From IMG/VR virus record IMGVR_UViG_3300032293_002036: a stretch of DNA of 20,000 nt; one strand, written 5' to 3'. Source of the DNA: an uncultured virus (IMG/VR IMGVR_UViG_3300032293_002036). Taxonomy: Duplodnaviria > Heunggongvirae > Uroviricota > Caudoviricetes. The position numbers were made by a program, and so were the translations under genes. Every line of letters starts with the position of its first letter. Within the stretch, counting starts at the first letter, position 1. Shown in pieces: positions 7,845 to 19,765 of the stretch. Under the pieces are notes generated by a model. The model ran no database searches and was not told where the DNA came from. It saw nothing but the letters and a program-made list of their open reading frames with translations.

Positions 7845-7871
7845 AAGAGGAAGAGACGATGGGAGGGAGTG

Positions 7872-9314
7872 TCATTCAGCGCAACTGGAGCAGAAGCCTG
7901 CATCCAGATTGCAAGACACACTTTCTTCTACTGGCTCGGCATCACCAAGCCCAAACATGCTTTGAAAATCGTCATCTAGAGCAGCGTAGGCATCATCCTT
8001 CCGTTGCATGTCAGGCATGACTTGCAGCGAGTAGTAGATGCTTGTCTGAGGAGATTCTAGCCATTTCCGCAAGAACTCCCGGTCATAAGTGACCATGTCG
8101 CCCCAAGTGTTCATGGAGTAGCCATGAAACAAATTGGTCGCTTGGAACAAACGAACAATACCATCAGCCACTCGTGAGAAGTTCTCCCAACCCACTTCTG
8201 CAGCGATCTCCACTTCGCCGTAGTCAAAGGTTTCGACGCCGAAGGTGCCGCTGTCGCGATCAACAGTGCGGCCAATGGGAGGGGCAATTTCAGGGGCTGT
8301 TGTGAAGCCCTTGGAATCGAGGTAGCGGTAGGAGCAGGAAGCAGTAGGAGCAATACAGAAAGCGCGTTCCATGCCGTATTTATTTGCAACTTGTTCAGCC
8401 GTGTAAATGGCATCATCAAGAGCGACAACAAGGTCGCCTGCTTTTGTATCGAGCCAGGAATCCCAGTCGCGACCACCAACTGTATAAGCTTCCAAGGCTT
8501 TGCCAAAGTCCTCGTATGTGACGCCATTGATTGCCAAGAAGTTGGCCAAACCAAGCAGTCCGAGGCCCACTTGTTTATCAATGGAAGGGGGGAGATATTC
8601 GCCAGTGTCCCCTACGCCTGTGTCTGGATGGAGCCGGCACAGTTGATGCATCGCCTTGGCGAACACATCCTCCAGCTCTTCAGGAGTGCAAGCGCCCAGA
8701 TTGACATGCTGAAGCAGGCAAGTGCCACGATGCTTTAGCCAGATTTCTTCGCAGACATTCGGCCAGATGCGCTCGCCATTCTTGTCATAGCGCTTTTTCG
8801 TGAGCCAGATGTCTCCAGAGGCAATGCCCTTGAGCAGCGCATCAATGAACTCTTCAGAGGCTTTTTTCAAGAACTGGTCGTCCACTGTGATGGAGCGCTT
8901 CACCCAAGGGAGAGACTGCCTGGAGGCTTGAATGAACTTCAGGGCGTCAGGGTGGTCGTAGTCGAGGTGCAGCGTGACGGCGCCATTACGAAACTGACCG
9001 CCGCGCCGCAGCACTTCATTAAGCTTGCTGTAGATGGTTGCAAAGCTTACTGGGCCGCTGGCTACCAAGCCTTTCCCGTTGTCCTGAGCCTCAGGACGAA
9101 GTTTGGAAAGATTGACGGCTGCTCCTGCAGCATTTCGCAACGCATGAGACACAAAACGCCACGATGCTTCAATGCCATCTGGCCCTTCCATTGAATCTTC
9201 CACCACGAAGGTGCAGCAACTGACAGGGAGACGGCTCTCAGGGCTATCCATCCAGTCTTGAATACGTCCCGTTCGAGCGATTTTAGAGCTTGTAGCTTTT
9301 TCCTTGAATGTCAT
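7872..9314 (-). CDS. nrdA: Ribonucleotide reductase class I alpha subunit (minimal, no ATP cone)
   Basis: 480 aa. 'PVSCC' (C225 equivalent), 'PNVCEEI' (N437/C439/E441), 'GTCLL' (C462), 'IAPTASCS', 'SIYYSL' (Y730/Y731, diagnostic of class I) and C-terminal 'CSSCAE'. Confidence 0.92.
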   Translation of the reverse strand: MTFKEKATSSKIARTGRIQDWMDSPESRLPVSCCTFVVEDSMEGPDGIEASWRFVSHALRNAAGAAVNLSKLRPEAQDNGKGLVASGPVSFATIYSKLNEVLRRGGQFRNGAVTLHLDYDHPDALKFIQASRQSLPWVKRSITVDDQFLKKASEEFIDALLKGIASGDIWLTKKRYDKNGERIWPNVCEEIWLKHRGTCLLQHVNLGACTPEELEDVFAKAMHQLCRLHPDTGVGDTGEYLPPSIDKQVGLGLLGLANFLAINGVTYEDFGKALEAYTVGGRDWDSWLDTKAGDLVVALDDAIYTAEQVANKYGMERAFCIAPTASCSYRYLDSKGFTTAPEIAPPIGRTVDRDSGTFGVETFDYGEVEIAAEVGWENFSRVADGIVRLFQATNLFHGYSMNTWGDMVTYDREFLRKWLESPQTSIYYSLQVMPDMQRKDDAYAALDDDFQSMFGLGDAEPVEESVSCNLDAGFCSSCAE

Positions 9315-9320
9315 GATCGT

Positions 9321-9830
9321 TTAGTGAACTGGATAAAGAGTTGTTAGTCGTTGATTGATGTAATCTAAGCGGGCCTTGGCAACCCTCGCCTCGGCCTCCT
9401 CGGCAGTCGCAAACCCTCCCAGCGCAATTGTTTTTCCTTGGCAGACTAAGCGAGCATAGTACCTGTTATCCACCTTGTGAACGCCTCGCCCGTATTGAGA
9501 TTTTCTTGCCTTGGTATTGTGCAATTGCCCTTCGTAGGTAGCGAGCCTCAGGTTTGCTGGATCATTATTGGACGGATTTCGGTCGATGTGATCAATGGTC
9601 ATTGAGCCTGGATCTCTTCGGTGAAAGATTGCCCAAACAACTCGATGACAGTGAAAACGACGACCGTAAAAATTTACGATCGAATGACCAGTGTCCTTGA
9701 CGCAACCAGCAATATCACCGGCTTTCATTTTCCAGTGATTCACTTTCCATCGAAGCCCCGTTGGGCTGGTCAGTGAGATAGAGAGCTTGGAACTTAATCT
9801 CTCCACATCTAAAGGCAGATGTGGCTTCAT
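9321..9830 (-). CDS. HNH homing endonuclease with a C-terminal AP2 domain
   Basis: 'HRVVWAIFH...TIDHIDRNPSNNDPANLR' HNH core. 'YGRGVHKVDNRYYARL...LGGFATAEEA' AP2 domain. Confidence 0.88.
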   Translation of the reverse strand: MKPHLPLDVERLSSKLSISLTSPTGLRWKVNHWKMKAGDIAGCVKDTGHSIVNFYGRRFHCHRVVWAIFHRRDPGSMTIDHIDRNPSNNDPANLRLATYEGQLHNTKARKSQYGRGVHKVDNRYYARLVCQGKTIALGGFATAEEAEARVAKARLDYINQRLTTLYPVH

Positions 9831-9857
9831 AAAAGGCTTTGGCAGGGCTTTGAAAGT

Positions 9858-9971
9858 TTAGCATGAAAACCGTGCAGCCACTGCCAGTCGCCCTTCGGGG
9901 CTGTCAAGCCAGTCCTGCACCCTTCCTGTGCGGGCAATCTTTGCACACGTTGCGTTTTCCTTGAATGACAT
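9858..9971 (-). pseudogene. nrdA: Truncated, frameshifted duplicate of the nrdA 5' end
   Basis: Hand translation MSFKENATCAKIARTGRVQDWLDSPEGRLAVAARFSC* versus NrdA MTFKEKATSSKIARTGRIQDWMDSPESRLPVSCCTF gives 23/31 identical. A 1-nt frame shift after 'RLAV' restores 'xCTVF'. Confidence 0.88.
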
Positions 9972-9975
9972 GGAC

Positions 9976-9999
9976 AAAAAAAGCCCGCTTGTGCGGGCT
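9976..9999 (-). terminator. Intrinsic terminator
   Basis: AGCCCGC-ACAA-GCGGGCT followed by a T run on the minus strand. Confidence 0.7.
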
Positions 10000-10074
10000 G
10001 CGATCAACAGAGGAAGCCTAGCGCAGACCAGGGGTTTCCCTTGCCTTAATGACGAAAGCTTTCAGGAGCCCTCT

Positions 10075-10263
10075 CTAGTCGCACAGACCTTCGGAGTCTT
10101 CCATCGCCTGCCTGTCCCTGGCGAACAGCACTGCATTGCTCTTGCTTCTGAAATAGAAAGGCTTCCCTTCGTAAGCGATGAACCACTGATAGTCGGGCCG
10201 GCTATGAACAGGCCAAACTTTTATCCCGCCAACCATAAATGGCGATGGTAGGTCGTCGAACAT
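10075..10263 (-). CDS. Small hypothetical protein
   Basis: 62 aa from ATG 10263 (MFDDLPSPFMVGGIKVWPVHSRPDYQWFIAYEG...). Confidence 0.6.
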   Translation of the reverse strand: MFDDLPSPFMVGGIKVWPVHSRPDYQWFIAYEGKPFYFRSKSNAVLFARDRQAMEDSEGLCD

Positions 10264-10336
10264 AACAATGCCCCAGCCTTTTATCAAGACTAGGGCGGAT
10301 CGATGGGGAAAGTAGTGGTGAATGATACCTATCGTT

Positions 10337-10522
10337 TCACAGTCGCACCTCCGTAGTGACTAGGTATTTAGTCGGGACTCCATGAAAAGATACAATGTCA
10401 AGGTCAATGGCCACAACGCTGCATTGAGTTTCCTTTTCAAACTTCTCAATGGCGTCTGCCATCGCTTTTTCAAGCACGCGCTTGGCAGCTATTACTTCTT
10501 GAATGGTCATGTTTGCGTTCAT
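10337..10522 (-). CDS. Small hypothetical protein
   Basis: ORF 'MNANMTIQEVIAAKRVLEKAMADAIEKFEKETQCSV...'. Start may instead be ATG 10510. Confidence 0.6.
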   Translation of the reverse strand: MNANMTIQEVIAAKRVLEKAMADAIEKFEKETQCSVVAIDLDIVSFHGVPTKYLVTTEVRL

Positions 10523-10602
10523 AAGAGAAAATTGCAATGGGGGGGGGAGTGGTGATAAAGAAGAGGCGCCTAGCGCCCCTTTGTTCTTTTTAACGGATCG
10601 CT

Positions 10603-11664
10603 TTAGCGAAGCTCATCAAGAGCGGTGAGCCAGTTAGCGAGGATCGCCCTTTGCTGTTCCCCGAAAGGAGCATCGCCATATGCAAATTTACTCCAGTAGC
10701 TGCGTCCTTGAGGAGAGCTTGACCAGACAAACGCTCCACTCAGATTGTCTGAGTCGAAGGGCTTTGTCAGCAGACGCAGGGTGTGCTCAGGACAAATTCT
10801 GCGCAGGAACTCCTCGCTGGGGGCGGGCGCTTTCTCCACCTCTTTCTCTGCCTTTGCTTTTGCAGCCTGCTTTTTCTTTGCCTTGAAATGAGCAGTCAGC
10901 CAGCTCTCCAGGATTTCCTTCTGCTCTTCGCCGAAAGCACTCTCATCGTCCTGAAACTTCGACCAGTAGTAGTGCCCTTGAGGAGAATTCTTCCAAGTGA
11001 ATGCACGGGGCAAGTGGCGTTTGTCTGCGCTGAAGGGCTCTGTTAGCAAAGGGAGAATGTGCTTGGCCGGCAGGTCAATCAAGAAACTCTCGCTAGGCAG
11101 GGGCCAGGATGCCTCATCCTCTTCTTCCTTCTCTTCTTCTTCGGGCTCTTTCTCTGCCTCGTCCAATTCAAGACGCGCAATCAGCCAGTTGCAAACGATG
11201 TCCTTTTGCTCTTGGGTGAAAGGAGTCCGCCCATGGTGAATGTCCCCCCAGTAGCCAACACCTTGAGGGGAGTCCGACCAAGAGAAAGCACGGATCAAAT
11301 GAAAAAGTCCTTCATGGAAAGGTTTGGCCAGAAGATACAGCGCTTGGTCCATATTTATAGACAGCAGGAACTCCTTGCTGGGCTCGTCCCACTCTTCCTT
11401 TTCGGACTCTTCCTCTTCTACTGCCGGCTCACTTTCTTCAACGGCCTCCTTGCTTGCAGTTTGTCGAAGAAGCTTAACAGCTTCAACAAGCAGAGGGATT
11501 TCCTCGAAGTCAAGCGTAACCTCTTCATCGTCATACTGCTTAAGGCTCACATACTCATGACCTTGTTCCCCGTCAAGGGAAACGCGGACAGTTGATGGGT
11601 CGCTGGCCCCTTCGTGAAGGGGCACAATGGCAATTTCAACGGGACCTAGGGTGTAACCGGACAT
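10603..11664 (-). CDS. Hypothetical protein with three tandem ~65-aa AFxWxxSPQGxxYW domains
   Basis: Three clear internal repeats separated by acidic or Lys/Ala linkers. Start at ATG 11664 after a pyrimidine leader; GTG 11703 is an alternative. Confidence 0.85.
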   Translation of the reverse strand: MSGYTLGPVEIAIVPLHEGASDPSTVRVSLDGEQGHEYVSLKQYDDEEVTLDFEEIPLLVEAVKLLRQTASKEAVEESEPAVEEEESEKEEWDEPSKEFLLSINMDQALYLLAKPFHEGLFHLIRAFSWSDSPQGVGYWGDIHHGRTPFTQEQKDIVCNWLIARLELDEAEKEPEEEEKEEEDEASWPLPSESFLIDLPAKHILPLLTEPFSADKRHLPRAFTWKNSPQGHYYWSKFQDDESAFGEEQKEILESWLTAHFKAKKKQAAKAKAEKEVEKAPAPSEEFLRRICPEHTLRLLTKPFDSDNLSGAFVWSSSPQGRSYWSKFAYGDAPFGEQQRAILANWLTALDELR

Positions 11665-11699
11665 GTTTGAGGGGAAAGAAAAACGAGGCCTGATGGTTG

Positions 11700-11939
11700 T
11701 CACCAGTCAGGATATGAGAAGGGTAGCTGGCTTTCGTCCATTGTCAACTCCCATTGAATGAGGTCCACTTGGTGACCTGTCTTGTTCGTCACACGAGGGC
11801 GATAGAAGCTTTCCTTCTCGGGCCTGAGCATAGCAGGCAGCTCGCGCACGGTTCGATGCCAGGCTCGCTCAGAAGGCACAAACACCCTCCAGAGGCTTGT
11901 CACGGCCACGTAGCCAGAACGACTGTCGTTGTATCCCAT
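11700..11939 (-). CDS. Hypothetical protein
   Basis: 79 aa from ATG 11939 (MGYNDSRSGY...), preceded by the pyrimidine-rich leader seen at other genes here. Confidence 0.55.
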   Translation of the reverse strand: MGYNDSRSGYVAVTSLWRVFVPSERAWHRTVRELPAMLRPEKESFYRPRVTNKTGHQVDLIQWELTMDESQLPFSYPDW

Positions 11940-12622
11940 GGGAAAGAAGGGGGGAAGCAGGAAGCTCACAGCATAATCACAAGCTTTTTCGCCTCCCATT
12001 GTCCGAAAACGCTCACAAAAGACACCTTTTTAATTGGCACAACAAGGCTACGACTAGAGTCTCATTTAAGTCTCATTTTGAGATTGTGAGATTTCGCTTT
12101 ACCATTAGTACATGGCGTAGCGCGTAGAGCGTTCAGCTTCGTCACGTTCGTGAGCCGCTTCGCGAAGGAGCCCCAAGCGTTCCCGAACAAGCGGCTCAGC
12201 TCCATCACTCTCCTTCAATTACTTTCTTCTAAGTAACCCTTGCAAGGAGCCTTACGAGCTGAGCCCCAAGCGACTACGTTCTAAAGGCTCCTCCTTCACC
12301 ACCTCCTTTCGCTCTCTCTTCTTTTCTGTCGTAACGCCCATGGTGTGCGTAGCTTTCACCCAGGCAAAACAATAAACGAAAGCAATAGAAGAAGAAAAGA
12401 AAGAAGATCGCAATGAACAAACGCTGGGGCTCCCTCTCTTAGCGATCTTCTAAAGACAATGGCTCGAAACAATAGCCCTTCGCGAATGCACAGTTATCGA
12501 ACATCTAGGTGTCCTCACTTTCAGCTCGTAAGCTACAGATCGTTCGGACAGTGCGCACTAGCTTTTGCCTGGGGAGAACCTCAAAATTTCCGTTAAAATA
12601 AAAGGGTACGCACGGAGTTCCG

Positions 12623-13216
12623 TTGGAAACAAAGAAATGTTCATCTTGTCAAGTCACGCTGTCGCTCGACAAATTTTACAAAGACTCATCCAGGCGCGAT
12701 GGCCTGACGAACAAGTGCAAACGATGCTCTTACGCAAGGCGTGTTAAATACGTAGAGAAAAACCCTGAGATTATCAAAGCAGAAAAACAAAGATACTACG
12801 CTCGAAACGCTGAAAAATTGCGCAAGTATTACTTTGACAACAGGGAGCGAATCTTGGCTACGGCAAAAGAAAGCCGAACCGGCAAGGAAGGATACATTAG
12901 AACCATGCTGAACTCGGCAAAAGCTCGCGCCAAGCGAAAGGGTTGGGATTTTGATTTAGAACTAAATGCGTTGTTAGGCATTGCCGGCGATTGCTGTCCA
13001 GTCGATGGGCTTCCTTTTGACTGGGATAGACAATTAGAAATTGATAACGCACTCCCATTGACCGTTCCATCTCTTGACAGAATTGATTCGTCTCGTGGCT
13101 ACACAAAAGACAACGTAATGATTATTGGCGACAAATGGAACAGATGGAAAAGCAACATGGATCTTGACGACTTGGAACAGCTAATTCAATATGTACGCAG
13201 TGTTACAAAAGGCTAA
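12623..13216 (+). CDS. HNH-type (beta-beta-alpha-Me) endonuclease with an N-terminal Zn ribbon
   Basis: 'KKCSSC...FYKD...DGLTNKCKRC' Zn ribbon. 'CPVDG...SLDRIDSSRGYTKDNVMII...NRWKSN' nuclease core. GGAG 5 nt before the TTG start. AT-rich. Confidence 0.82.
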   Translation: METKKCSSCQVTLSLDKFYKDSSRRDGLTNKCKRCSYARRVKYVEKNPEIIKAEKQRYYARNAEKLRKYYFDNRERILATAKESRTGKEGYIRTMLNSAKARAKRKGWDFDLELNALLGIAGDCCPVDGLPFDWDRQLEIDNALPLTVPSLDRIDSSRGYTKDNVMIIGDKWNRWKSNMDLDDLEQLIQYVRSVTKG

Positions 13217-13273
13217 AAAACTCGATCGTTTTTGCCGTCGCGGTTAACGGGGGTACCCCCACCCCCCTCTCCC

Positions 13274-13289
13274 TAGTACATCCGTACTA
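13274..13289. promoter_or_regulatory. TAGTAC-N4-GTACTA palindrome (cyanobacterial LexA-box-like)
   Basis: TAGTACATCCGTACTA, one mismatch to RGTACNNNDGTWCB. Confidence 0.45.
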
Positions 13290-13456
13290 CTGCTCCCTGT
13301 CTGTATCCATTGTTACCATTTCACACTTCAAAACACAGGGAATCTTAATCGAAACATTCTCAATAGCGCGTATTGTTGAGAATTCTCTCTCCTTCGCATG
13401 AGAAAGGCCTCCCCTTCGAGAAGGAGAGGCGAGAAGGCTTCTCAACCTAGGGGTTC

Positions 13457-13645
13457 TCAGGAGCCTTGAAGGAGGCGCGCTCGAGCCTCTCGAGAGGAGG
13501 AGAAGGGGAGGCAAGGCGAGGAGCGCTCGAGCCTTTCGAGGAGGCTCTCGAGGAGCTCCTCCTCGAGCATGCTCTCAGGCTCGAAGGCCTCGAGAGCGAG
13601 GAGAAGAAGAAGGAGCTCGAGCGAGGAGAAGGAGGAGGGACTCAT
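13457..13645 (-). CDS. Small hypothetical protein (GT/AC-depleted island)
   Basis: 62 aa (MSPSSFSSLELLLL...). ATGA overlap with the upstream gene. No Val or Thr. Confidence 0.5.
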   Translation of the reverse strand: MSPSSFSSLELLLLLLALEAFEPESMLEEELLESLLERLERSSPCLPFSSSREARARLLQGS

Positions 13646-14757
13646 GAGCATTCTCCCAATCCCGAGAAGCGCGCGAGGCCTCCTCCTGAGAGCTCCTGCC
13701 AGTCAGCGTGAGGAGCGAGCGCAAAGGCCTTCGCGCTCTCAGGCTTCGAGCCTCTCGAGCGCTTAAGGCGAAGGAGCACCGCAAGGCCTGAGAAGCCAGC
13801 GCGAGGCGCTCGATCGAGCATGCGCAGGTCGTTAAGGTCGCCGTCGATGCAATCGAGGCGCGCGAGGCCTCCTCCTTTCGCGGTGAGCATGAGCTCAGCC
13901 GGGAGAGGCTCGCCTTTCGCGAGGAGCACCGGCACGGCAATTGCGAAGCCATGGCGAGAGGCCTCGAGAGCGCGCAATGCTCCTCCGGGAGCATCCGCAG
14001 CAAGGCTCGCCGTGGTGTGGATGCCGGCTTCTCTCATGGCGAGAAGGCGCGCAAGAGGAGCCTTAGCGTAATCGTACAAGTGCACTCCTCGAGCATCGCG
14101 CAAGGCCTCCGGGATTGTGAGCCTCCCGGATGGGATTGGGCTCCCATAAAGGCGAGAAAGGCCTCGAGCCTCCTCCGGAGAAAGGCGCGCGCTCATGCTC
14201 CGCTCATGCCACGGGAGCTCCTGAGTGCCATTAAGGCGAAGCGCAAAGGGGAGGCGAAGCTTGCGCGCCTTGCGCGCTGCGAGGCCTCCGGACCACAGAA
14301 GCGCCTTTATAAAGGCTTCTGAGTCCCATAGAAAGGCGAGCATTCTGCGAGCGCGACAGGAGGCGCATGCTGTGCTGATCCCCCCGTGGCCGGAGAATGC
14401 CAGGCACAGATCACGGCATGATGCGCTCGAGAAGGCGCAAGCGTTAAGCGCGAGCGCGCGCTCGAGGAGCCCGCAACGGATCGCGAGCTCGCGAAGGCCC
14501 GGGAGCTCGCTCCTCACGTCGCAAGTATGCGAGTCCGGAGTCAGTGCGCGCGCAAGTCCTCGAGCCGGGAGCATATGAAGGAGCGAGGAGAAGGCGAGGC
14601 CTTCGCCTTTCGCGAGCTTCGCGTTTGCAGCTCCGGAGGTGAGAAGGCCGGGGATCGTGAGGCCGAACTGCGCGAGGCTCGAGGAGAACTCGCGAGGAGA
14701 GCGAGGCGCCTTCGAGCGGACTGCAGGAGGAGCGAGGAGGAGAGAAGGAGAAGCCAT
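13642..14757 (-). CDS. GP88-like (radical-SAM-related, Cys-rich) phage protein
   Basis: 'LLTSGAANAKLAK', 'NACAFSSASCRDLCLAFSGHG' (Cx6Cx3C), 'LRLNGTQE.PW', 'LYDYAK' and 'DGDLNDLRMLD' match the gene-product-88-type family as recalled. Confidence 0.7.
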   Translation of the reverse strand: MASPSLLLAPPAVRSKAPRSPREFSSSLAQFGLTIPGLLTSGAANAKLAKGEGLAFSSLLHMLPARGLARALTPDSHTCDVRSELPGLRELAIRCGLLERALALNACAFSSASCRDLCLAFSGHGGISTACASCRARRMLAFLWDSEAFIKALLWSGGLAARKARKLRLPFALRLNGTQELPWHERSMSARLSPEEARGLSRLYGSPIPSGRLTIPEALRDARGVHLYDYAKAPLARLLAMREAGIHTTASLAADAPGGALRALEASRHGFAIAVPVLLAKGEPLPAELMLTAKGGGLARLDCIDGDLNDLRMLDRAPRAGFSGLAVLLRLKRSRGSKPESAKAFALAPHADWQELSGGGLARFSGLGECS

Positions 14758-14801
14758 GAGAAGGAGAAAGGAGAAAGGAGAAGGAGAAAGGCGAAAGGAG
14801 C

Positions 14802-15236
14802 TCAGCGAGCGAGGAGAGGCCAGCGCAGCTCAGCCATGAGCTCTTCGAGCTCCTCGAGGCTCTCCTCGAGCTGAGCCTGCAGAGCCTCTCGCCTGTCGGC
14901 GATTGTGCGGAGATCCGCTGCGCGCTCGCGCAGTTGCAAGGCTCCCATTTGCAGATCCTTCGCGCTCATGCACAGGCGAGGCTCGCGCTCGAGAGCTGAG
15001 AGAAAGGAGGAGGCCTCGACCTCGAGCTCCTCGGCATCGGCGCGCAAGGAGAAAGGCGAGGAGCGCTCCTCGAGAAGCGCGAGGTTCTTCTCGAGCATGA
15101 GCGCGAAGGCCTCCGCCTCCTCGAGCGAGGAGAAGGAGAGCGCAGGCCAGGAGAGCTCACCTGGGAGCACAGGCGAAGGCGAGAGGCGAGGAGCGCGAGG
15201 CGCGCGCAGTTCACCGGGGAGGAGAGGAGAAGCCAT
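14802..15236 (-). CDS. Hypothetical coiled-coil protein (GT/AC-depleted island)
   Basis: 144 aa. Same MASP-LL start and pyrimidine leader as the downstream gene. Helical, E/L/A/R-rich. Confidence 0.6.
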   Translation of the reverse strand: MASPLLPGELRAPRAPRLSPSPVLPGELSWPALSFSSLEEAEAFALMLEKNLALLEERSSPFSLRADAEELEVEASSFLSALEREPRLCMSAKDLQMGALQLRERAADLRTIADRREALQAQLEESLEELEELMAELRWPLLAR

Positions 15237-15474
15237 GAGGAGAAAGGCGAAGGCCTCCCCATATAAAGGCCTCGAGCGCCTTTCGAGAAGGAGCGATCAG
15301 GACCGGTGATCGATCACCCCCATTTCAGGCACTGATTAGCGCGTTAGCTTATCGGAGCCCGATTCGGCGCAGAATGACAAGCCAGGCTAATCAGTGGAGC
15401 GGCAAGGCGCGATCCCGTAGCGCGGACAGGCTGAGTCTTGCGAGTCTCGCAACAATTGTTCACAATGAGGCTCA

Positions 15475-15635
15475 GCGCATAGAGTCTCCATGCGCCTATG
15501 CGCTTGCAAGCATAAAAGCGCTGTTCGCCTATGCGTCCACACGCATACAGTCTCGATGCTTCCATGCGCCTATGCGCATACAGTCCCTATGCGCACACGC
15601 GCATACAGGCTCAATGCGCCTATGCGCATATAGAC
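15475..15635. repeat. Degenerate short-repeat array (CCTATGCG / GCATACAG)
   Basis: CCTATGCG occurs five times and ATGCGCCTATGCGC three times, interspersed with GCATA(C/G/T)AG. Non-coding. Confidence 0.8.
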
Positions 15636-15641
15636 ATGGGC

Positions 15642-15671
15642 AGTACATTTGTACTATAGTACGCCTGTACT
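15642..15671. promoter_or_regulatory. Two tandem AGTAC-N4-GTACT palindromes (cyanobacterial LexA-box-like)
   Basis: AGTACATTTGTACT (15642-15655) and AGTACGCCTGTACT (15658-15671) both fit RGTACNNNDGTWCB. Four GTAC units at an 8-bp period. Confidence 0.6.
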
Positions 15672-15690
15672 AATGAAAATGATTCTCATT
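15672..15690. promoter_or_regulatory. 9-1-9 palindrome, Fur-box-like
   Basis: AATGAAAAT-G-ATTCTCATT, one mismatch from perfect symmetry. Confidence 0.35.
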
Positions 15691-15753
15691 TTTACTGCAA
15701 GTGCTTCTCAACAGCAATAAGACTGTAGACGCATACAGCCTTAATACCGCCGG

Positions 15754-15893
15754 AGCCGGACCCGAACTCTTCCAAAACAATCTGTTTTCCAGCCGGGTCT
15801 TAAACAAGTTGTTTTCCAGCCGGATCCGACCCCCCCCGCGAAACAAGCTACTTTTCAGCCGGATCCAGAACAATACTTTTTTCGCCCGGGTCT
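15754..15893 (+). repeat. Iteron-like direct repeats AACAA-N3-5-TTTTC(C)AGCCGGRTC
   Basis: CCGG cores at about 15756, 15793, 15820, 15859 and 15886. The last four are preceded by AACAA and a T-tract. Confidence 0.75.
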
Positions 15894-15935
15894 TGATTAT
15901 TTGCTTCATATTTCCAGTCAAGCAAGGACCAGTTA

Positions 15936-16190
15936 TCACCACCCCCAGTCGCCTTCCATGGGAGCCCACTGTAGCTGCTGCTCTTCAAGCCATGCCATAA
16001 GCGCTTCGTCGTCGCTTGGCCATTCCCCAGGCTCCACTGGCACCATTGTTTCGCACAGGGTCTCTCCTAGCTCCTCCGGGGCATGTCTGGAAGCTTTGCG
16101 CACCACCACTGCGTCTTCCACCATTGCCCACACTTGGAGGCTGCCTGTAGAGGAATCGTAAGCCCAACTATCAACGGAGAGAATGCTCAC
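15936..16190 (-). CDS. Small acidic hypothetical protein
   Basis: 84 aa, GTG start, natural composition. Confidence 0.65.
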   Translation of the reverse strand: MSILSVDSWAYDSSTGSLQVWAMVEDAVVVRKASRHAPEELGETLCETMVPVEPGEWPSDDEALMAWLEEQQLQWAPMEGDWGW

Positions 16191-16224
16191 GAGAAGTCTC
16201 CAGAGTGGTAGTCCCTGCCCATTG

Positions 16225-16530
16225 TCAAACCCTCTTGAAATTAGAAAGATAGATGTTCCATAAGCCAGCAGGGATGTCTCCTGGCCGATATAGCGTATAG
16301 CAAGATTTCCCCCTCACCATCCTGCCTTCCCCATTGTCGAAAGGCTCTGCTTCGTCCACCCAAATTCCTTTGCATTCGCCATCAGGATCAAACAAGCCAA
16401 TTTGATACTCGCAATCCTCCATGCACTTACGAGTGTGAAAGAGCATGTCTCTCAGGCCAGCGGCTTGATACACGTCCTTCGTGGGCGCGAAATAAGGCCC
16501 GTTTCCGGTGTAACTACGAACAGTGAACAT
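16225..16530 (-). CDS. Hypothetical protein
   Basis: 101 aa from ATG 16530 (MFTVRSYTGNG...) after a pyrimidine-rich leader. Confidence 0.7.
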   Translation of the reverse strand: MFTVRSYTGNGPYFAPTKDVYQAAGLRDMLFHTRKCMEDCEYQIGLFDPDGECKGIWVDEAEPFDNGEGRMVRGKSCYTLYRPGDIPAGLWNIYLSNFKRV

Positions 16531-16596
16531 GGTCGAAGAGGGGAAACTATGGGAAAACAAAGCAAGAGGCCCCTGGGGAGGGGCCTGTGACAAGGC

Positions 16597-16977
16597 CTAG
16601 CAAAAGTCGGTGCGCCCATTGGAGTAGGCGAACCATTCCCGCTTGCTGGTGCTGCTGGGCTTGGAATGGACCTTCCACACTTCCGGCAGTTCTTCCGTTT
16701 CGATAAGGGTGCCAGCGGGCACGCGGATCGGGCCGTTCAGGGTGGAGATGGTCCACTGATCCATCACGGGGCCATTCAGGTACCAAGTTTGGCACACGTG
16801 CAGGAGGCCGATCATTTCCATCTTGCGAGGGTTGGCAGCGCCCATGCGTACCTGGATCGGGAAAGGCTGGTGCCAGTCGGGCAGGGTGACGGTCATGCGG
16901 ATGGTGTTGAGGCCATCGAAGACGGTGTAGGAGTCTGCGGTGGTGAGCTGCTCGACAGTGTGGTTGATGCGGGTCAT
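16597..16977 (-). CDS. Hypothetical protein
   Basis: 126 aa from ATG 16977 (MTRINHT...), just downstream of a promoter cassette. Confidence 0.7.
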   Translation of the reverse strand: MTRINHTVEQLTTADSYTVFDGLNTIRMTVTLPDWHQPFPIQVRMGAANPRKMEMIGLLHVCQTWYLNGPVMDQWTISTLNGPIRVPAGTLIETEELPEVWKVHSKPSSTSKREWFAYSNGRTDFC

Positions 16978-16997
16978 CGCTGGAAGTGAGTGGTGGA

Positions 16998-17046
16998 CCT
17001 CGCGGCCCGTTGAAAGAACAATAAGATCAAACGGGGCAGGCGTCAA
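16998..17046 (-). promoter_or_regulatory. Sigma70-type promoter with 28-bp duplicated leader (copy A1)
   Basis: TTGACG-17 nt-TATTGT. 16998-17025 is identical to 17397-17424. Confidence 0.7.
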
Positions 17047-17055
17047 GCCCTTCAG

Positions 17056-17376
17056 TCAGAAGGCGGTGGGAACGGGGCGCAAACCAGTGAAGCGCTGAAA
17101 AGCAGCAAGGGCTTCAGACGAATTGCCACCAATGCTCCAGGAGTGCTCACCAGTGGGAGTGGCAGTCTCTTTCCAGTCGTAAACAGTGAAGCTTTCCCCA
17201 TTGTTCAGCTCAAAGCACCAAGAGACAGTCACCTTGTCGCCATTGCGCTCATGAGGCTCACCCAGGAGCACGCAGAGAGCCTGATAGGTGGTGCGGACAG
17301 TGCCCTGGAGAGAGGTGCCACCGCCGTGGCCCTTGCCGAGCACTGCGAGGGCGGGGAGGTTGGAAACGATGGTCAT
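17056..17376 (-). CDS. Conserved hypothetical phage protein (GTSLQG...LGEP...DKV...FTVYDWK)
   Basis: 106 aa ORF with its own promoter cassette. Confidence 0.75.
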   Translation of the reverse strand: MTIVSNLPALAVLGKGHGGGTSLQGTVRTTYQALCVLLGEPHERNGDKVTVSWCFELNNGESFTVYDWKETATPTGEHSWSIGGNSSEALAAFQRFTGLRPVPTAF

Positions 17377-17396
17377 GGGAGGGAAGGGGGAGAGGG

Positions 17397-17445
17397 CCTC
17401 GCGGCCCGTTGAAAGAACAATAAGCCAGAAAGGGGCCGTTGCCAG
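17397..17445 (-). promoter_or_regulatory. Promoter/leader cassette (copy A2)
   Basis: CTGGCA-17 nt-TATTGT. 28-bp identity with copy A1. Confidence 0.6.
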
Positions 17446-17475
17446 CCCCTCCCATTGATGATCTTCCCTTATGGC

Positions 17476-18486
17476 TCAGGCGGCCAAGGCCAGAGCGTGG
17501 GCCTTGGTGATGGTGGCAGCCCCAGTGCCCCACCATTGGCTCTCCAGGCGGCGACGTGCAGCCTCCACACCGTCACCACGGCCTGCTTCGTGCGTCACCC
17601 ATTCCGTGATGGCGTTGTAGGCGCCCCAGTAGGTGCCTTGCACGCCTTTGATGTCGAAACCAATGCCGTCACCAGCAAATTTGTTTGCGACGGTGTCCCA
17701 TTGGGGCAGATCGCCAAGCGTTCTGGCCCGAGCAGAGGTCTTGTCACCACGCTTGTCATTGACAGTGCCGGCCAGTTGATCAGCAAACACCTGTTCGCAA
17801 TAGGCCTTGAATTGGGCTGTGGTGCAAGGCTTGGCGGCCATTGCTTCCAGCTCCTCCAAGCCGGCAGTGAACTGCTGGCGCTTGATGTCGATGATCTCAG
17901 GGAGACGCCCAATCAGGGCGTTGCAGTTGAGCGTGTGGCGAATGCTGATGCGCTTGCCCTTGCTGGAAGCGCCAGTGCGATCGGCATGGCCAAGAGCAGC
18001 GCTGAGCGTGTTGGCACACACCACGCGCACCGGGGTGAAGAGAGTTTGGAAGGCGAGGGAGCCGTCGTGGCTGGTGGCGCCAACGATGTACTGGCAGATT
18101 TCGTCACCCTTGACCACTTCACCTTCCGCCCCATTGATCTTGGCCGTGAAAGTTACCTTGCGACCTTCATCAAGCACGCACACCGCGCTCATCTCGGCGT
18201 CTTCGTGCAACGCCTCTGCCAGCTTGATGAGCTGTTCATTCTGGACAATGGTGTAGGAAGCTTTCTGCACGCTCAGCACAGAGCCATTGTCGCCCCTGGT
18301 GATGGCTTGATAACCTTCAATGGGGAGGCCAGCAGGGTCGAAGATAGGCGTGGAGAGCACCTCCCAGTCGGCTTCGCCCAAGGCAAAAGCTTCACGGGCG
18401 GGCATGGTGCCATCAACAACGTGGCCGAGGCCGTGCCAAGCAGCTTGGCCGTGGAAGAAGGCGCCGGAGGAGAACTGGTGGCTCAT
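17476..18486 (-). CDS. DUF932 family phage/plasmid protein
   Basis: 'AWHGLG', 'ADWEV', 'YTIVQN', 'TSHDGS', 'TPVRVVCANTL', 'IRHT' and 'GTYWGAYNAITEW' motifs. Confidence 0.88.
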   Translation of the reverse strand: MSHQFSSGAFFHGQAAWHGLGHVVDGTMPAREAFALGEADWEVLSTPIFDPAGLPIEGYQAITRGDNGSVLSVQKASYTIVQNEQLIKLAEALHEDAEMSAVCVLDEGRKVTFTAKINGAEGEVVKGDEICQYIVGATSHDGSLAFQTLFTPVRVVCANTLSAALGHADRTGASSKGKRISIRHTLNCNALIGRLPEIIDIKRQQFTAGLEELEAMAAKPCTTAQFKAYCEQVFADQLAGTVNDKRGDKTSARARTLGDLPQWDTVANKFAGDGIGFDIKGVQGTYWGAYNAITEWVTHEAGRGDGVEAARRRLESQWWGTGAATITKAHALALAA

Positions 18487-18591
18487 GGTTTTGAAGAGAA
18501 GGGAGCGAGGTCGAGTCGCTTGAAAAGAAAGTTAGATGGTGGAGGGGCCAAAAGGCAAGCCCCTCGGTCTTGACGTTACGTTCTGAAACAA

Positions 18592-18852
18592 TCAGCGCAA
18601 CTGCGAGCAAATGCCTTCAAGCATTTCCTCTACGTAGGTCTGAGCCTCGCGGAGCTTTCTGAAAGCAGCATCGCGCTCTGAGCGGGCCTGAGAGTAGGCG
18701 TCTGCGCCCTGTGGGTAGAAGTCCCTTGCGTTGAGCGTTGCACCTGCAAGGGCCTCAATGGCATTGTCGATGGCTTCGTAGGCACCGAGGTACTCACGCT
18801 TCAGGCTGGAGCCGGAGGTGCCGTTGAGGTGGACAGTGGGGATGGTTGCCAT
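18592..18852 (-). CDS. Hypothetical protein (PTVHLNGTS...NARDFYPQG)
   Basis: 86 aa with its own promoter/leader cassette. Confidence 0.75.
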   Translation of the reverse strand: MATIPTVHLNGTSGSSLKREYLGAYEAIDNAIEALAGATLNARDFYPQGADAYSQARSERDAAFRKLREAQTYVEEMLEGICSQLR

Positions 18853-18865
18853 GGGGAAAGAGAAG

Positions 18866-18897
18866 GGGCATCGCTGCCGGACAAGGAAAACAATACA
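18866..18897 (-). repeat. 32-bp duplicated promoter/leader cassette (copy B1)
   Basis: Identical to 19292-19323. Contains the -10-like TATTGT. Confidence 0.8.
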
Positions 18898-18934
18898 TCA
18901 CGGAGGGGTCAAAGCCCCTCTCGGTTACAAGGCT

Positions 18935-19276
18935 TCACACTCGCACGATGCCATCTTCGACAAAGCGAAATCGCTGCCATTCGGCATTGCGAGCGTAGCC
19001 ACGAGCCTCAAACTCGTGACCAACCTTTCCAGTCACCTGGATTGAGGCGGCGGTGCCTCTTTTGTTGGAGGCTATGACCTCCCGGATGGGTTCATGTCCT
19101 GGCACGCGCCGGTAATGGCTCTGATGGGCCTTTGCGCTGTGGCTGGCGACGGGACTCGCCACCTTGAAGACAGCCACATTCCCGGTCACGTAGCCAATCT
19201 CACCAGCGATGCGCACCGGCTTTGCATCCGCTCGCACTTGAATGGCGGGCACTCCAGGCACTTGAAAGATGATCAT
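18935..19276 (-). CDS. Hypothetical protein
   Basis: 113 aa from ATG 19276 (MIIFQVPGV...), downstream of cassette B2. Confidence 0.65.
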   Translation of the reverse strand: MIIFQVPGVPAIQVRADAKPVRIAGEIGYVTGNVAVFKVASPVASHSAKAHQSHYRRVPGHEPIREVIASNKRGTAASIQVTGKVGHEFEARGYARNAEWQRFRFVEDGIVRV

Positions 19277-19291
19277 GACTCCGAAGGGAAA

Positions 19292-19323
19292 GGGCATCGC
19301 TGCCGGACAAGGAAAACAATACA
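19292..19323 (-). repeat. 32-bp duplicated promoter/leader cassette (copy B2)
   Basis: Identical to 18866-18897. Confidence 0.8.
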
Positions 19324-19375
19324 GCATCGAGGGGCTCCGTTGCCCCTAAATGATGACTATTTTTTATCACCGCAA

Positions 19376-19765
19376 TCAAGCACGCCAATCACCGAGGTCA
19401 TTAGCGGCAACGTCCACCAGTCGCTCGACAGACTTCGCGCCCAGGCAAGCAAGCTGGATAGCAAAACGCATCTCGTCCTCTCCGTAGCCATCAACAATAA
19501 GCCGAAGGTATTGGCAAAGTTTTTTTATCGAATCATCAATCTCTGCTTCTTCGTAAATCCAGAGAAGATGGAGTCCTCGGGTGAATTCGACAAAGGCCCT
19601 AAGAAGCGATGATTTGCTGGTGAGCATGCAGGCATCCGGGGGAAGCTTTGCGTAGATAACAGAAGGATGAAAACGCAGCGGACGATCGTCTTCGTCGCAT
19701 GGCCACAATCCAGTGGAAATAGATTCAAGCGACAAAAGATCGGGAGAGGCAAAGATGGTGCTCAT
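19376..19765 (-). CDS. Hypothetical protein
   Basis: 129 aa from ATG 19765 (MSTIFASPDLL...). Confidence 0.6.
   Translation of the reverse strand: MSTIFASPDLLSLESISTGLWPCDEDDRPLRFHPSVIYAKLPPDACMLTSKSSLLRAFVEFTRGLHLLWIYEEAEIDDSIKKLCQYLRLIVDGYGEDEMRFAIQLACLGAKSVERLVDVAANDLGDWRA

What the first reader, a model, noticed from the sequence alone, without database searches (positions are those of the whole stretch)
13390..15310. A 1.9-kb coding island from which the GT/AC dinucleotide has been almost purged
Seen: hand counts give 5 GT+AC in 13441-13740 (none in 13455-13639) and 6 in 14581-14880, versus 15 in only 120 nt of an ordinary gene nearby (17641-17760). The DNA is instead built from GAG/CTC/GCG words (many CTCGAG, GAGCTC, AGGCCT, GCGCGC). 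The depletion covers three genes and their spacers and has fairly sharp edges. In the windows counted, the residual GT/AC inside genes mostly sit at Thr, Val, Asn or similar codons. The proteins are poor in Val/Thr (6 Val in 371 aa; none of either in the 62-aa ORF). Inference: DNA-level selection strong enough to rewrite proteins. One option is a first-injected or terminal segment evading a host system that reads GT/AC-containing motifs before phage counter-defence is expressed (type I R-M half-sites, Dnd GAAC/GTTC). Another is a motif-free zone for a phage protein that recognises the GTAC boxes at the edges. Site avoidance in first-injected DNA is known (T7, T5); I do not know of a described case at dinucleotide level.
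Basis: partly seen in the sequence, partly recalled or inferred. Interest (0 to 1): 0.88.

Follow-up and report, generated by a model that had tools for sequence, protein, structure and literature searches.

The report
Recoded SOS-gated cassette in a cyanophage
A three-gene cassette in a cyanobacterial virus, bracketed by binding sites for the host's DNA-damage repressor, has been rewritten in a reduced DNA vocabulary that almost lacks the steps GT and AC, and selection still keeps it so for a reason not yet known.

Summary
The island 13390-15310 has 59 GT+AC; every other 1921-bp stretch of the window has 162-204. The depletion survives codon-preserving shuffles. It is not an assembly artefact: 27 related alleles from many metagenomes form one clade with the same vocabulary. 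In two complete relatives it is the only such region.

The island is a discrete cassette that is exchanged horizontally. It holds a GP88-family gene, whose model is weakly like radical-SAM enzymes, and two small ORFs. Boxes matching the cyanobacterial LexA operator flank it and are almost absent elsewhere. A second allele class sits at the same locus in sister phages, GC-rich but with an ordinary vocabulary.

Forbidding GT/AC/TA leaves purine runs and pyrimidine runs joined by G|C and C|G. This accounts for the CTCGAG/GAGCTC/AGGCCT words, the L/S/A/E/R/G/P proteins and the pyrimidine-rich sense strand. Polarised substitutions show that the bias is still maintained.

Why GT/AC is forbidden is unresolved. 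My leading inference (about 0.35) is evasion of a host factor that reads GT, such as the GTN PAM of type I-D CRISPR. First-injection could not be tested.

The parts
13390..15310 (-). Recoded cassette (the island). GC is 0.64 and the GT/AC odds are 0.2-0.36. It is built of purine runs and pyrimidine runs joined by G|C and C|G.
   Evidence: Composition. Homology to L001 begins and ends at these compositional edges.
14802..15236 (-). First ORF of the cassette (P0002, 144 aa), acidic and rich in Leu, Glu and Ala. No family was found.
   Evidence: Translation. Pfam, PHROGs and NCBIfam give no hit over threshold. It is kept at 94% in L001, 74% in L005, 69% in L002 and 55% in L027.
13642..14757 (-). 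GP88-family gene (P0001, 371 aa). Its model has a weak radical-SAM-like fold. Cys107, Cys114 and Cys118 are conserved.
   Evidence: Pfam PF17338 scores 25.9 bits against a cut-off of 24.4. phrog_1617 gives E 1.7e-20. 62 homologues were found. Invariant columns. The AF2 model has mean pLDDT 86. In the VIA wide search 19 of the top 20 chains are radical-SAM enzymes, Z 5.9-4.7.
13457..13651 (-). Third ORF of the cassette (P0003, 64 aa), with no Val and no Thr. It overlaps the end of the GP88 gene by 10 bases.
   Evidence: It is kept at 93% over 41 aa in L001. No family was found.
15642..15671 (.). Two tandem boxes, AGTACATTTGTACT and AGTACGCCTGTACT, that match the cyanobacterial LexA operator. 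They lie about 330 bp upstream of the cassette edge.
   Evidence: The consensus RGTACNNNDGTWCB and the predicted recA/lexA boxes of Synechococcus are given in PMC3091678.
13275..13288 (.). LexA-type box downstream of the cassette. It reads AGTACGGATGTACT on the cassette's sense strand, in the conserved context GGGAGCAGT-box.
15311..15641 (-). Stretch of ordinary composition between the LexA boxes and the cassette. It holds three TATGCGCATA-like palindromes (15571, 15588, 15621) and the motif ACTGATTAGCCTGGCTT, which L001 shares.
15682..15711 (-). Promoter-like site (TTGAGA, 18 nt, GAGAAT) just upstream of the LexA boxes, pointing into the cassette.
   Evidence: Consensus scan only. No transcript data are held.
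13407..13430 (-). Hairpin followed by a T-rich run at the 3' end of the cassette. It looks like a terminator.
15270..15288 (-). Hairpin at the 5' edge of the cassette, followed by TTTATATGGGGAGGCC. Related GGAGGCC/GGCCTCC hairpins precede ORFs in the larger cassette of L014.
12623..13216 (+). Flanking endonuclease VII/HNH-like gene, convergent with the cassette. It is a conserved neighbour in both allele classes.
   Evidence: phrog_1035 gives E 1e-30. Synteny.

Best explanation
SHOWN. The island is a self-contained three-gene cassette: a GP88-family enzyme and two small acidic ORFs, all on the minus strand. It lies in a cyanosiphovirus related to Synechococcus phage S-CBS4. Arrays of palindromic boxes that match the host LexA operator bracket it. 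Related phages exchange it as a unit.

Two deeply diverged allele classes occupy this locus. This one was recoded once into a vocabulary that nearly forbids the steps GT and AC on both strands. The ban acts on nucleotides, not on amino acids, and it is still being maintained.

The rest of the odd anatomy follows from the ban together with the need to code. Only G|C or A|T can lead from a purine run to a pyrimidine run, and mostly C|G leads back. This gives GAGCTC, CTCGAG and AGGCCT. It gives proteins made of L, S, P, F, E, K, R, G and A. It gives a pyrimidine-rich sense strand.

INFERRED. GT/AC is forbidden because the cassette must stay invisible to a host factor that reads double-stranded DNA through a GT-containing word of two or three bases. 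The best-known candidate in cyanobacteria is the 5'-GTN-3' PAM of type I-D CRISPR-Cas.

The cassette would be singled out for two reasons. It is gated by LexA, so it would be expressed when the host is in its SOS state. It is also a unit shared among many phage backbones, so a hit on it would be costly and a common target. The ordinary allele class would persist where hosts lack that factor.
For: Nucleotide-level selection. With amino acids and codon usage fixed, seven other purged GP88 genes show AC at 14 against 71 expected at codon junctions and GT at 21 against 63. Ordinary genes show AC 49/77 and GT 112/119. The window's own genes behave the same way.

Strand symmetry. On the sense strand of 12 islands (37 kb), AC is 0.32 and GT 0.28, although the bases are strongly skewed (C 0.40, A 0.11). 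All 16 NGTN words are depleted 0.21-0.74 relative to the flanks.

Ongoing maintenance. In nine triplets with 518 synonymous derived changes, GT/AC is created in 0.20 of changes against 0.29 expected. It is destroyed in 0.11 against 0.03 expected. The 518 synonymous against 65 non-synonymous changes show that the proteins are under constraint.

Single origin. The 27 purged tips form one clade on a long branch, against 34 ordinary tips.

A unit that moves. The cassette is 93-96% identical in protein to that of L001, while the flanking genes are 29-40% identical. L040 and L059 share a 90-91% identical DUF932 neighbour but carry the ordinary allele, at 45-53%. Homology to L001 stops at the compositional edges.

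Uniqueness. It is the only region with GT/AC below 0.4 over more than 400 bp, and the only region with GC above 0.62, in two complete genomes of 74.9 and 70.4 kb.

LexA boxes. In the window they lie at 13275, 15642 and 15658. In G001 they flank the island on both sides and in G002 they lie just upstream. At one mismatch there is a single stray box, in G002. They match predicted recA/lexA operators of Synechococcus.

The vocabulary as a consequence of the ban. 70% of purine-to-pyrimidine boundaries are GC, against 37% in the rest of the window. 63% of A residues lie between two purines, against 35%.

Restriction avoidance is active in these phages and the island obeys it. CAGCTG occurs 0 times in 174 kb of flanks and 64 kb of islands.

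Type I-D CRISPR-Cas uses a GTN PAM and is abundant in cyanobacteria (PMC10212523, passages read).
Against: A threefold local cut in GT/AC removes only about 2% of the genome's possible GTN PAMs. The gain to the phage is therefore unclear.

Nothing here shows that the hosts carry type I-D or any other reader of GT. The host itself is inferred only from the LexA-box type and from the 63% identical portal of S-CBS4.

The ordinary allele class lives in sister phages, some from the same metagenomes, without any purge.

The excess of CT, TC, GA and AG at codon junctions is large (359/247, 326/220, 104/46, 164/100). CTCT/AGAG is enriched 7.8-fold. Words of 9-12 bases repeat far above codon-order shuffles. 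A drive for certain words, rather than against GT/AC, is not excluded.

The codons that still hold GT/AC are not at more conserved columns.

The island is crowded with type II sites such as CTCGAG, 23 copies. It is not a general stealth segment.

No expression data and no mapped genome ends are held.
Confidence: 0.35

Rival explanations
1. Regulatory insulation. The cassette is kept free of anything the host transcription machinery reads, so that the flanking operator arrays alone decide its expression. The words in question are recalled from memory: the LexA half-site GTAC, the -35 TTGACA, the -10 TATAAT, NtcA GTA-N8-TAC and the RpaB site GTTACA. All are built of the steps GT, TA, AC, CA, TG and TT.
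For: The two most depleted step classes, GT/AC and TA, are exactly the steps of GTAC. Up to six tandem LexA-type boxes lie upstream and a conserved pair lies downstream, which suggests very tight control. Two more palindrome types cluster in the same hubs. The purge is limited to the cassette. TT, CA and TG are also lower than in the backbone.
Against: The ordinary allele class has the same boxes and no purge. GTA and TAC are over-represented, not under-represented, given the dinucleotide levels (1.5 and 2.0). At codon junctions TA is no more depleted in the island than in ordinary genes. The rest of two 70-kb genomes stays free of strong LexA boxes without any purge.
Confidence: 0.15
2. RNA-level selection. 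The cassette's transcript must lack AC, GU and UA to escape a short-motif endoribonuclease, or must be rich in C and U for stability or for translation without a Shine-Dalgarno sequence. If the downstream boxes drive an antisense promoter, both transcripts would be under this pressure.
For: The sense strand is 58-70% pyrimidine with only 11-14% A. ORF starts follow pyrimidine tracts without a nearby GGAGG. LexA-type boxes lie at both ends, so convergent transcription is conceivable, and one RNA motif avoided in both transcripts would look strand-symmetric. The sense RNA is predicted to fold more stably than synonymous shuffles (z -1.5 to -4.3). MazF/PemK-type toxins that cut at ACA, UAC or UAH are recalled from memory.
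Against: If only the sense strand is transcribed, two unrelated motifs (AC and GU) would have to be avoided to the same degree (0.32 and 0.28). ACA and UGU are over-represented given the dinucleotides (2.4 and 2.0). No transcript data are held.
Confidence: 0.12
3. First-injected or terminal segment. The island enters the cell first and must survive a restriction system until counter-defence is made, as in T7 and T5.
For: The logic fits a local purge with sharp edges. The phage backbones show strong restriction avoidance, so restriction matters to these phages. The cassette lies about 8 kb from the large terminase gene in the window, and at similar distances in five relatives.
Against: No physical ends are known. 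The island is dense in type II sites: 55 palindromic hexamers per kb against 10. The ordinary allele class occupies the same position in sister phages without a purge. The purged state therefore follows the allele, not the position.
Confidence: 0.08
4. No selection on GT/AC as such. The vocabulary is either the signature of a donor genome or the product of a local mutational process, such as slippage, template switching or conversion among short repeated words ('cryptic simplicity').
For: Direct and inverted repeats of 8-12 bases far exceed both dinucleotide-preserving shuffles and codon-order shuffles. For example, 122 positions lie in repeated 12-mers against 4 expected. The cassette moves between phages.
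Against: Derived point changes do not copy words from elsewhere in the same island more often than the ancestral states did (79 against 90 of 457 at k=9). The bias is maintained at synonymous sites through divergence down to 57% DNA identity, so it is not a fading donor signature. The islands share the backbones' own site avoidance: CAGCTG is absent everywhere, and CTCGAG is absent from both backbone and island of G001. An A-to-G hypermutation would raise Ala and GC, but both fall.
Confidence: 0.12
5. Damage-tolerant template. This is an SOS-time gene set whose transcribed strand is purine-rich and GC-rich. It would then carry few UV-prone TT and other dipyrimidine sites and could still be transcribed from damaged DNA.
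For: Both allele classes are GC-rich islands (0.58-0.76) in phages of about 0.49 GC and are flanked by LexA boxes. The template strand is 58-70% purine. TT is depleted at codon junctions (72/128).
Against: Purines on the sense strand are clustered (AG 2.06, GA 2.14). The template therefore keeps many CT and TC dipyrimidines. Dipyrimidines as a whole rise on the two strands together. GT/AC has no known link to UV lesions.
Confidence: 0.05

Closest known systems
Site avoidance in early-entering DNA of T7 and T5 (recalled from memory, not checked in a paper here)
   Same: It is a local stretch, not the whole genome, and it is poor in sequences that a host nuclease reads. The stretch holds genes that are needed first.
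   Different: There whole recognition sites of four to seven bases are missing. Here a dinucleotide class is cut three- to five-fold, the proteins are rewritten, and many type II sites are enriched. Entry order is unknown here.
Genome-wide depletion of CRISPR PAMs in phages (PMC4246573, one passage and the abstract seen; PMC12174588, search listing and abstract only)
   Same: A very short motif read on either strand of double-stranded DNA is depleted by selection. The GTN PAM of type I-D would give exactly a GT/AC depletion (PMC10212523, passages).
   Different: The published cases are genome-wide and mild. This one is confined to one 2-4 kb cassette and is strong. The backbone is only at 0.65-0.78. 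No host CRISPR type is known here.
Morons of temperate phages (concept recalled from memory)
   Same: It is a gene block of foreign composition set between conserved genes, with its own control signals and a terminator-like hairpin, and it is exchanged between phages.
   Different: The composition is not merely that of a donor. It is a reduced alphabet that is kept actively, and it comes in two allele classes at one fixed locus.
Phage functions under host LexA, such as coliphage 186 tum, GIL01 and colicin operons with double SOS boxes (recalled from memory)
   Same: Tandem host SOS boxes sit in front of a phage or plasmid operon.
   Different: These are cyanobacterial-type boxes (RGTACNNNDGTWCB) in a cyanosiphovirus. 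They lie on both sides of the cassette, up to six in a row. My search of the held library listed no paper that describes such a case (titles and abstracts of 12 of 27 hits seen).
CpG and UpA suppression in RNA viruses of vertebrates (recalled from memory)
   Same: Selection works at the dinucleotide level across codons and rewrites synonymous and some non-synonymous sites.
   Different: That is a genome-wide trait read on RNA by known sensors. Here the purge is local, strand-symmetric, in a DNA phage, and its reader is unknown.

Membership tests
Pfam GP88 (PF17338) / phrog_1617 | Profile match over the curated threshold | tested here: met
   The score is 25.9 bits against a cut-off of 24.4, E 1.1e-5. 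phrog_1617 gives E 1.7e-20 over residues 24-319. Ordinary-vocabulary relatives score 32-41 bits. tblastn finds 74 phage records, 64 of them mycobacteriophages, all below 60% identity; the 40 listed are at 27-30%.
Radical SAM superfamily | CX3CX2C cluster motif | tested here: not met
   The three invariant cysteines are spaced C107-x6-C114-x3-C118. Variant spacings exist in the superfamily (recalled from memory), so this lowers membership but does not exclude it.
Radical SAM superfamily | Partial TIM-barrel fold like solved members | tested here: inconclusive
   In the VIA wide search 19 of the top 20 chains are radical-SAM enzymes (NifB, LIAS, PFL-AE, QueE, SP lyase, viperin), but Z is only 5.9-4.7. 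Foldseek against the PDB gives nothing at E <= 0.001. The PDB profile search finds nothing. No Pfam family other than GP88 appears at E <= 10.
Cyanobacterial LexA operator (SOS box) | 14-bp pseudo-palindrome RGTACNNNDGTWCB | tested here: met
   The window has three sites, at 13275, 15642 and 15658, against 0.35 expected in shuffles. They are near-identical to the predicted recA boxes of Synechococcus WH8102, CC9902 and WH7803 listed in PMC3091678.
Cyanobacterial LexA operator (SOS box) | Placed in non-coding DNA at a promoter and conserved among relatives | tested here: met
   Boxes lie within 3.5 kb upstream of GP88 in 14 of 24 purged loci, 15 of 21 ordinary low-GC loci and 8 of 12 high-GC loci that hold at least 1.5 kb of upstream DNA. 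The downstream context is conserved. Only a consensus promoter scan supports the promoter itself.
Cyanobacterial LexA operator (SOS box) | Bound by LexA and de-repressed on DNA damage | not testable with these tools
   No binding data and no expression data are held. No RNA run was listed.
First-entering site-poor segment (T7/T5 type) | Lies at the genome end that enters first | not testable with these tools
   No whole genome is held. Only contigs of runs were on offer. The starts of the two complete relatives are assembly starts.
First-entering site-poor segment (T7/T5 type) | Poor in the host's restriction sites compared with the rest of the genome | tested here: not met
   The island has 55 palindromic hexamers per kb against 10 outside. 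CTCGAG, GAGCTC and GCGCGC occur 23, 12 and 17 times inside and never outside. The island does share the universal absence of CAGCTG and TTCGAA.
CRISPR PAM depletion (type I-D, GTN) | GT depleted on both strands beyond what composition and codons explain | tested here: met
CRISPR PAM depletion (type I-D, GTN) | The host carries the system and its spacers target the phage | not testable with these tools
   The host is unknown and no spacer collection is on hand. The one scan of genome contigs found no cyanobacterial prophage.
Moron | Composition unlike the neighbours, with its own promoter and terminator | tested here: inconclusive
   The composition criterion is met. The promoter and terminator are only consensus matches.

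The most novel reading that the evidence does not exclude
Cyanobacteria, or their resident elements, have a defence that recognises incoming DNA through the density of a two-base step, GT/AC. It could be the GTN PAM of type I-D or V-K systems working on a widely shared phage cassette, or a sensor or nuclease not yet described. One lineage of an SOS-gated phage cassette has answered by rewriting every gene and spacer in a GT/AC-free alphabet. That would be a prokaryotic counterpart of CpG and UpA avoidance in animal viruses.
Probability: 0.2. Interest if true: 0.9.

Novelty: new variant of a known kind. Interest (0 to 1): 0.78.

Why it matters
Selection on short motifs in phage DNA is known as a mild, genome-wide trend, or as missing whole sites in early regions. 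Here a single mobile cassette has been recoded so thoroughly that its proteins use a reduced set of amino acids while staying under purifying selection. The state has lasted through deep divergence, side by side with an ordinary allele class at the same locus.

That gives a natural paired experiment for finding what reads GT/AC in cyanobacteria. It also shows how far a functional enzyme can be rewritten in a restricted nucleotide alphabet.

Separately, the cassette is the only place in these genomes that carries host LexA operators. This points to an SOS-controlled module that my searches of the held library did not find described. It lies in a widespread group of freshwater and estuarine cyanosiphoviruses and is built around the uncharacterised GP88 family.

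Tried and rejected
**Hypotheses tested and rejected**
- Assembly artefact or chimera. Rejected: the same kind of island sits at the same syntenic place in contigs from many metagenomes.
- A-to-G hypermutation in the AC context. Rejected: Ala and GC fall in the purged clade, and it is Ser, Leu, Phe and Glu that rise.
- Overlapping antisense genes. Rejected: stop counts and the longest open antisense runs equal those of synonymous shuffles in 9 genes.
- Templated conversion among repeated words. No sign: at k=9, 79 derived against 90 ancestral words of 457 recur elsewhere in the same island.
- Specific avoidance of the LexA half-site. Rejected: GTA and TAC are over-represented given the dinucleotides.
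- Residual GT/AC sits at essential residues. Not supported.

**Searches that found nothing useful**
- tRNA genes: 0 in the window.
- Rfam at E <= 1 over 12000-17000: 0 matches.
- Near-identical DNA in the phage collection: none.
- DNA methyltransferases PF00145 and PF01555: 0 of 4 related genomes.
- Families for the small ORFs: no hit over threshold in Pfam, PHROGs or NCBIfam.
- ESM Atlas: only the viral family DUF7227, score 0.90.
- Foldseek against the PDB and the PDB profile search: nothing.
- Scan of genome contigs: no cyanobacterial prophage. The one close hit (80%) is an 8.9-kb contig of a MAG labelled Aquiluna, probably a mis-binned phage contig.
- Earlier findings of this scan: none.
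- Literature on GP88/PF17338: one unrelated paper.

**Steps that could not be done**
- Public runs: no RNA holder is listed, and only contigs are kept.
- Whole genome of the window: not held.


Full report
**1. The observation**

The island 13390-15310 holds 59 GT+AC. No other 1921-bp stretch of the window holds fewer than 162.

The dinucleotide odds in the island are AC 0.20, GT 0.36 and TA 0.27. In the rest of the window they are 0.75, 0.80 and 0.49. AG, CT, GA and TC stand at 1.5-1.8 and GC at 1.35. GC content rises from about 0.52 to 0.64. The edges are sharp within about 100 bp.

Synonymous codons were shuffled among positions of the same amino acid. GT+AC at codon junctions is then 9 against 31.2 expected, 3 against 9.5, and 0 against 4.6 in the three ORFs. 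Five ordinary genes show 44/47.4, 34/37.0, 24/29.3, 12/18.0 and 21/30.3. The depletion therefore acts on nucleotides, beyond amino acids and codon usage.

One point needs correcting. At codon junctions TA is no more depleted in the island than in ordinary genes (38/85 against 53/155). GT/AC is the island-specific purge.

**2. What lies there**

The window is a tailed phage. It encodes a portal, a large terminase, ribonucleotide reductase and several homing-type endonucleases. Its portal is 63% identical to that of Synechococcus phage S-CBS4.

The island carries three minus-strand ORFs. The middle one (371 aa) belongs to Pfam GP88 and phrog_1617. It has 62 relatives in the large protein collection.

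The GP88 model is confident, with mean pLDDT 86. Its best structural neighbours are almost all radical-SAM enzymes, but Z is only 5.9-4.7. Foldseek and sequence searches of the PDB find nothing. Three cysteines are invariant, spaced C-x6-C-x3-C and not the classical CX3CX2C. I therefore call the fold radical-SAM-like and leave membership open. The two small ORFs have no family.

**3. It is conserved, and it arose once**

A profile scan of viral contigs returned 80 loci. In 31 of them the GP88 gene has the same state: GT/AC odds 0.20-0.54 and AG/GA/CT/TC odds 1.42-1.74. In the other 49 the values are 0.49-1.06 and 0.71-1.15.

I built a tree from the window and 60 loci. I left out 21 of the 80 viral-contig rows that were copies of the same contigs, near-copies or short pieces, and I added L091. 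On this tree the 27 purged sequences form one clade on a long branch, and the 34 ordinary ones form the rest.

The purged clade is old. Its members are down to 57% identical in DNA. Purged islands are 1.9-3.9 kb long and hold varying numbers of small ORFs in the same vocabulary.

In two complete relatives (74.9 and 70.4 kb) the island is the only stretch longer than 400 bp with GT/AC below 0.4. It is also the only region with GC above 0.62.

**4. It is a cassette that moves, in two allele classes**

The gene order is DUF932, two small genes, the island with GP88, then a convergent endonuclease VII-like gene. This order is kept in both classes.

The cassette and its flanks have different histories. 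The window's cassette is 93-96% identical in protein to that of L001, but the neighbouring genes are 29-40% identical. L040 and L059 share a 90-91% identical DUF932 gene with the window, yet carry the ordinary allele at 45-53%. DNA homology between the window and L001 begins and ends at the compositional edges.

The ordinary alleles are also sharp GC-rich islands: 0.64-0.76 in phages of about 0.45-0.5 GC.

**5. LexA boxes**

Sites of the form AGTAC-N4-GTACT lie at 13275, 15642 and 15658 in the window. In G001 they occur only at the two flanks of the island. In G002 they lie just upstream of it, with one stray site at one mismatch.

They fit the cyanobacterial LexA consensus RGTACNNNDGTWCB. They nearly equal the predicted recA and lexA operators of marine Synechococcus. 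For example, WH8102 recA has CGTACGCCTGTACT and the window has AGTACGCCTGTACT (PMC3091678, passages read).

Arrays of two to six boxes lie upstream of GP88 in all three groups of phages: 14 of 24, 15 of 21 and 8 of 12 loci with enough upstream DNA. A conserved box pair lies downstream. Two other palindromes, GAGAAT-N-ATTCTC and TATGCGCATA, cluster in the same hubs.

The cassette is thus most likely under host SOS control. Binding and expression were not tested. One of four related genomes has a tyrosine integrase.

**6. How the vocabulary follows from the purge**

If AC, GT and TA are forbidden, a purine run can be left only through G|C or A|T. A pyrimidine run is left mostly through C|G.

In the island 70% of purine-to-pyrimidine boundaries are GC, against 37% outside. 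63% of A residues lie between two purines, against 35% outside and 21% in ordinary alleles.

This produces GAGCTC, CTCGAG and AGGCCT, and 55 palindromic hexamers per kb against 10. It leaves codons for L, S, P, F, E, K, R, G and A, which are the nine commonest residues. Because the hydrophobic residues that remain (L, F) have pyrimidine codons, the sense strand becomes pyrimidine-rich.

Between the classes Ser rises from about 4-5% to 10-14% and Leu from 12% to 18%. Val and Thr fall from 5-6% to 2%. Leu is written CTC (67%) instead of CTG (62% in ordinary alleles).

Not everything follows. CT, TC, GA and AG are in excess at codon junctions. CTCT/AGAG is 7.8-fold enriched. Words of 9-12 bases recur, direct and inverted, far above both dinucleotide-preserving and codon-order shuffles.

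**7. It is still being maintained**

I took nine triplets of close sequences, each with an outgroup. They give 518 synonymous and 65 non-synonymous derived single-base changes, so the proteins are under purifying selection.

GT/AC is created in 0.20 of synonymous changes against 0.29 expected. It is destroyed in 0.11 against 0.03 expected. AG/CT/GA/TC is created in 0.28 against 0.15 expected.

The triplets overlap in history and polarity rests on parsimony, so these are indications, not exact rates.

**8. Why: what the tests exclude and what is left**

Several explanations are excluded or not supported:
- An artefact (section 3).
- A fading donor signature. The bias is maintained (section 7). 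The islands also share the backbones' own site avoidance: CAGCTG is absent from 174 kb of flanks and 64 kb of islands, and CTCGAG is absent from both backbone and island of G001.
- A-to-G hypermutation.
- Antisense genes.
- Ongoing templated conversion.
- Specific avoidance of LexA half-sites.
- General escape from type II restriction.

The pattern is strand-symmetric although the bases are skewed. AC is 0.32 and GT 0.28 on the sense strand. This is most simply read as a property of double-stranded DNA.

The purge also goes with the allele, not with the position, because sister phages carry ordinary alleles at the same place. That fits a selective agent that differs among hosts.

My leading inference is that the cassette evades a host factor that reads a GT-containing word of two or three bases. 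The GTN PAM of type I-D CRISPR-Cas, common in cyanobacteria, is the known example (PMC10212523). The weak point is that a local threefold cut barely changes the PAM load of the whole genome. One has to assume that this shared, SOS-gated cassette is a favoured or especially costly target. I give this 0.35.

The rivals are:
- regulatory insulation, 0.15;
- RNA-level selection, 0.12;
- a neutral or mutational origin, 0.12;
- first injection, 0.08;
- a damage-tolerant template, 0.05.

The rest of the probability is unassigned.

**9. Comparison and novelty**

Missing restriction sites in early phage DNA and genome-wide PAM depletion are the nearest known kinds. PMC4246573 was seen as one passage and its abstract. 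PMC12174588 was seen as its abstract in the search listing only.

This case differs in four ways. It is local, it works at the dinucleotide level, it is strong enough to change the amino-acid alphabet, and it is carried by one of two allele classes of a mobile cassette.

Four searches of the held library listed no description of such an island, of LexA boxes in cyanophages, or of GP88 function. The searches were for S-CBS4; for PAM, dinucleotide and depletion; for LexA, cyanophage and SOS; and for PF17338, phrog_1617 and 'Gene product 88'. I saw titles and abstracts only, and journals outside the library were not covered.

I file it as a new variant of a known kind, with high interest because the cause is open and directly testable.

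Noticed in passing
window 1-13300 and 15400-20000; G001 and G002 (L083-L090): The phage backbones avoid many palindromic hexamers. CAGCTG occurs 0 times against 32 expected in each of two complete genomes, and 0 times in 174 kb of flanks plus 64 kb of islands. TTCGAA is nearly absent. Each phage also has its own further set of avoided sites. This looks like restriction avoidance tuned to the hosts.
   Followed up: partly
window 15571-15700 and 13431; G002 9531-10036 and 14156-14532: Two further palindromic motifs, GAGAAT-N-ATTCTC and TATGCGCATA, cluster with the LexA-type boxes on both sides of the cassette. Together they form what looks like a regulatory hub of the phage.
   Followed up: partly
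window 13216-13390 (minus strand); L001 and L002 in alignment A1: A conserved element of about 100 bp lies downstream of the cassette: AAATGGTAACAATGGATACAGA, then GGGAGCAGT with a LexA-type box, then a G-rich hairpin. It is shared by phages whose flanking genes differ. There is no Rfam match.
   Followed up: partly
L014 3610-5442: The larger purged cassettes hold three paralogous small ORFs with hydrophobic N-termini that look like signal peptides or membrane segments (motif SVLMLRS..ALA..LALFA). Each is preceded by a GGAGGCC/GGCCTCC hairpin.
   Followed up: no
window 7872-9830: The ORF for the large subunit of ribonucleotide reductase (480 aa) matches only parts of the family profiles. An HNH endonuclease gene (9321-9830) follows it directly, so the gene may be split or invaded by a homing element.
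   Followed up: no
window 3142-5225: A NUMOD3 homing-endonuclease gene (3142-3852) overlaps the start of the large terminase ORF (3819-5225).
   Followed up: no
window 17400-19321: 36 positions lie in repeated 12-mers, against 0 expected from dinucleotide shuffles. There is some direct repeat in or near the DUF932 gene region.
   Followed up: no
L033 5443-7110; L076 5359-7107: Ordinary-class GP88 genes in low-GC phages carry an N-terminal extension of 180-220 aa with poly-Gln and Pro-Ala runs. The purged class lacks it.
   Followed up: no
L091 (8.9-kb contig of a MAG labelled Aquiluna): A purged-type GP88 gene (80% identical) lies on a short contig binned with an actinobacterial MAG. The LexA boxes are of the cyanobacterial type, so this is probably a mis-binned phage contig.
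   Followed up: no
G005:C1:69074-69508: One of four related complete or near-complete genomes encodes a tyrosine integrase, so part of this phage group may be temperate.
   Followed up: no
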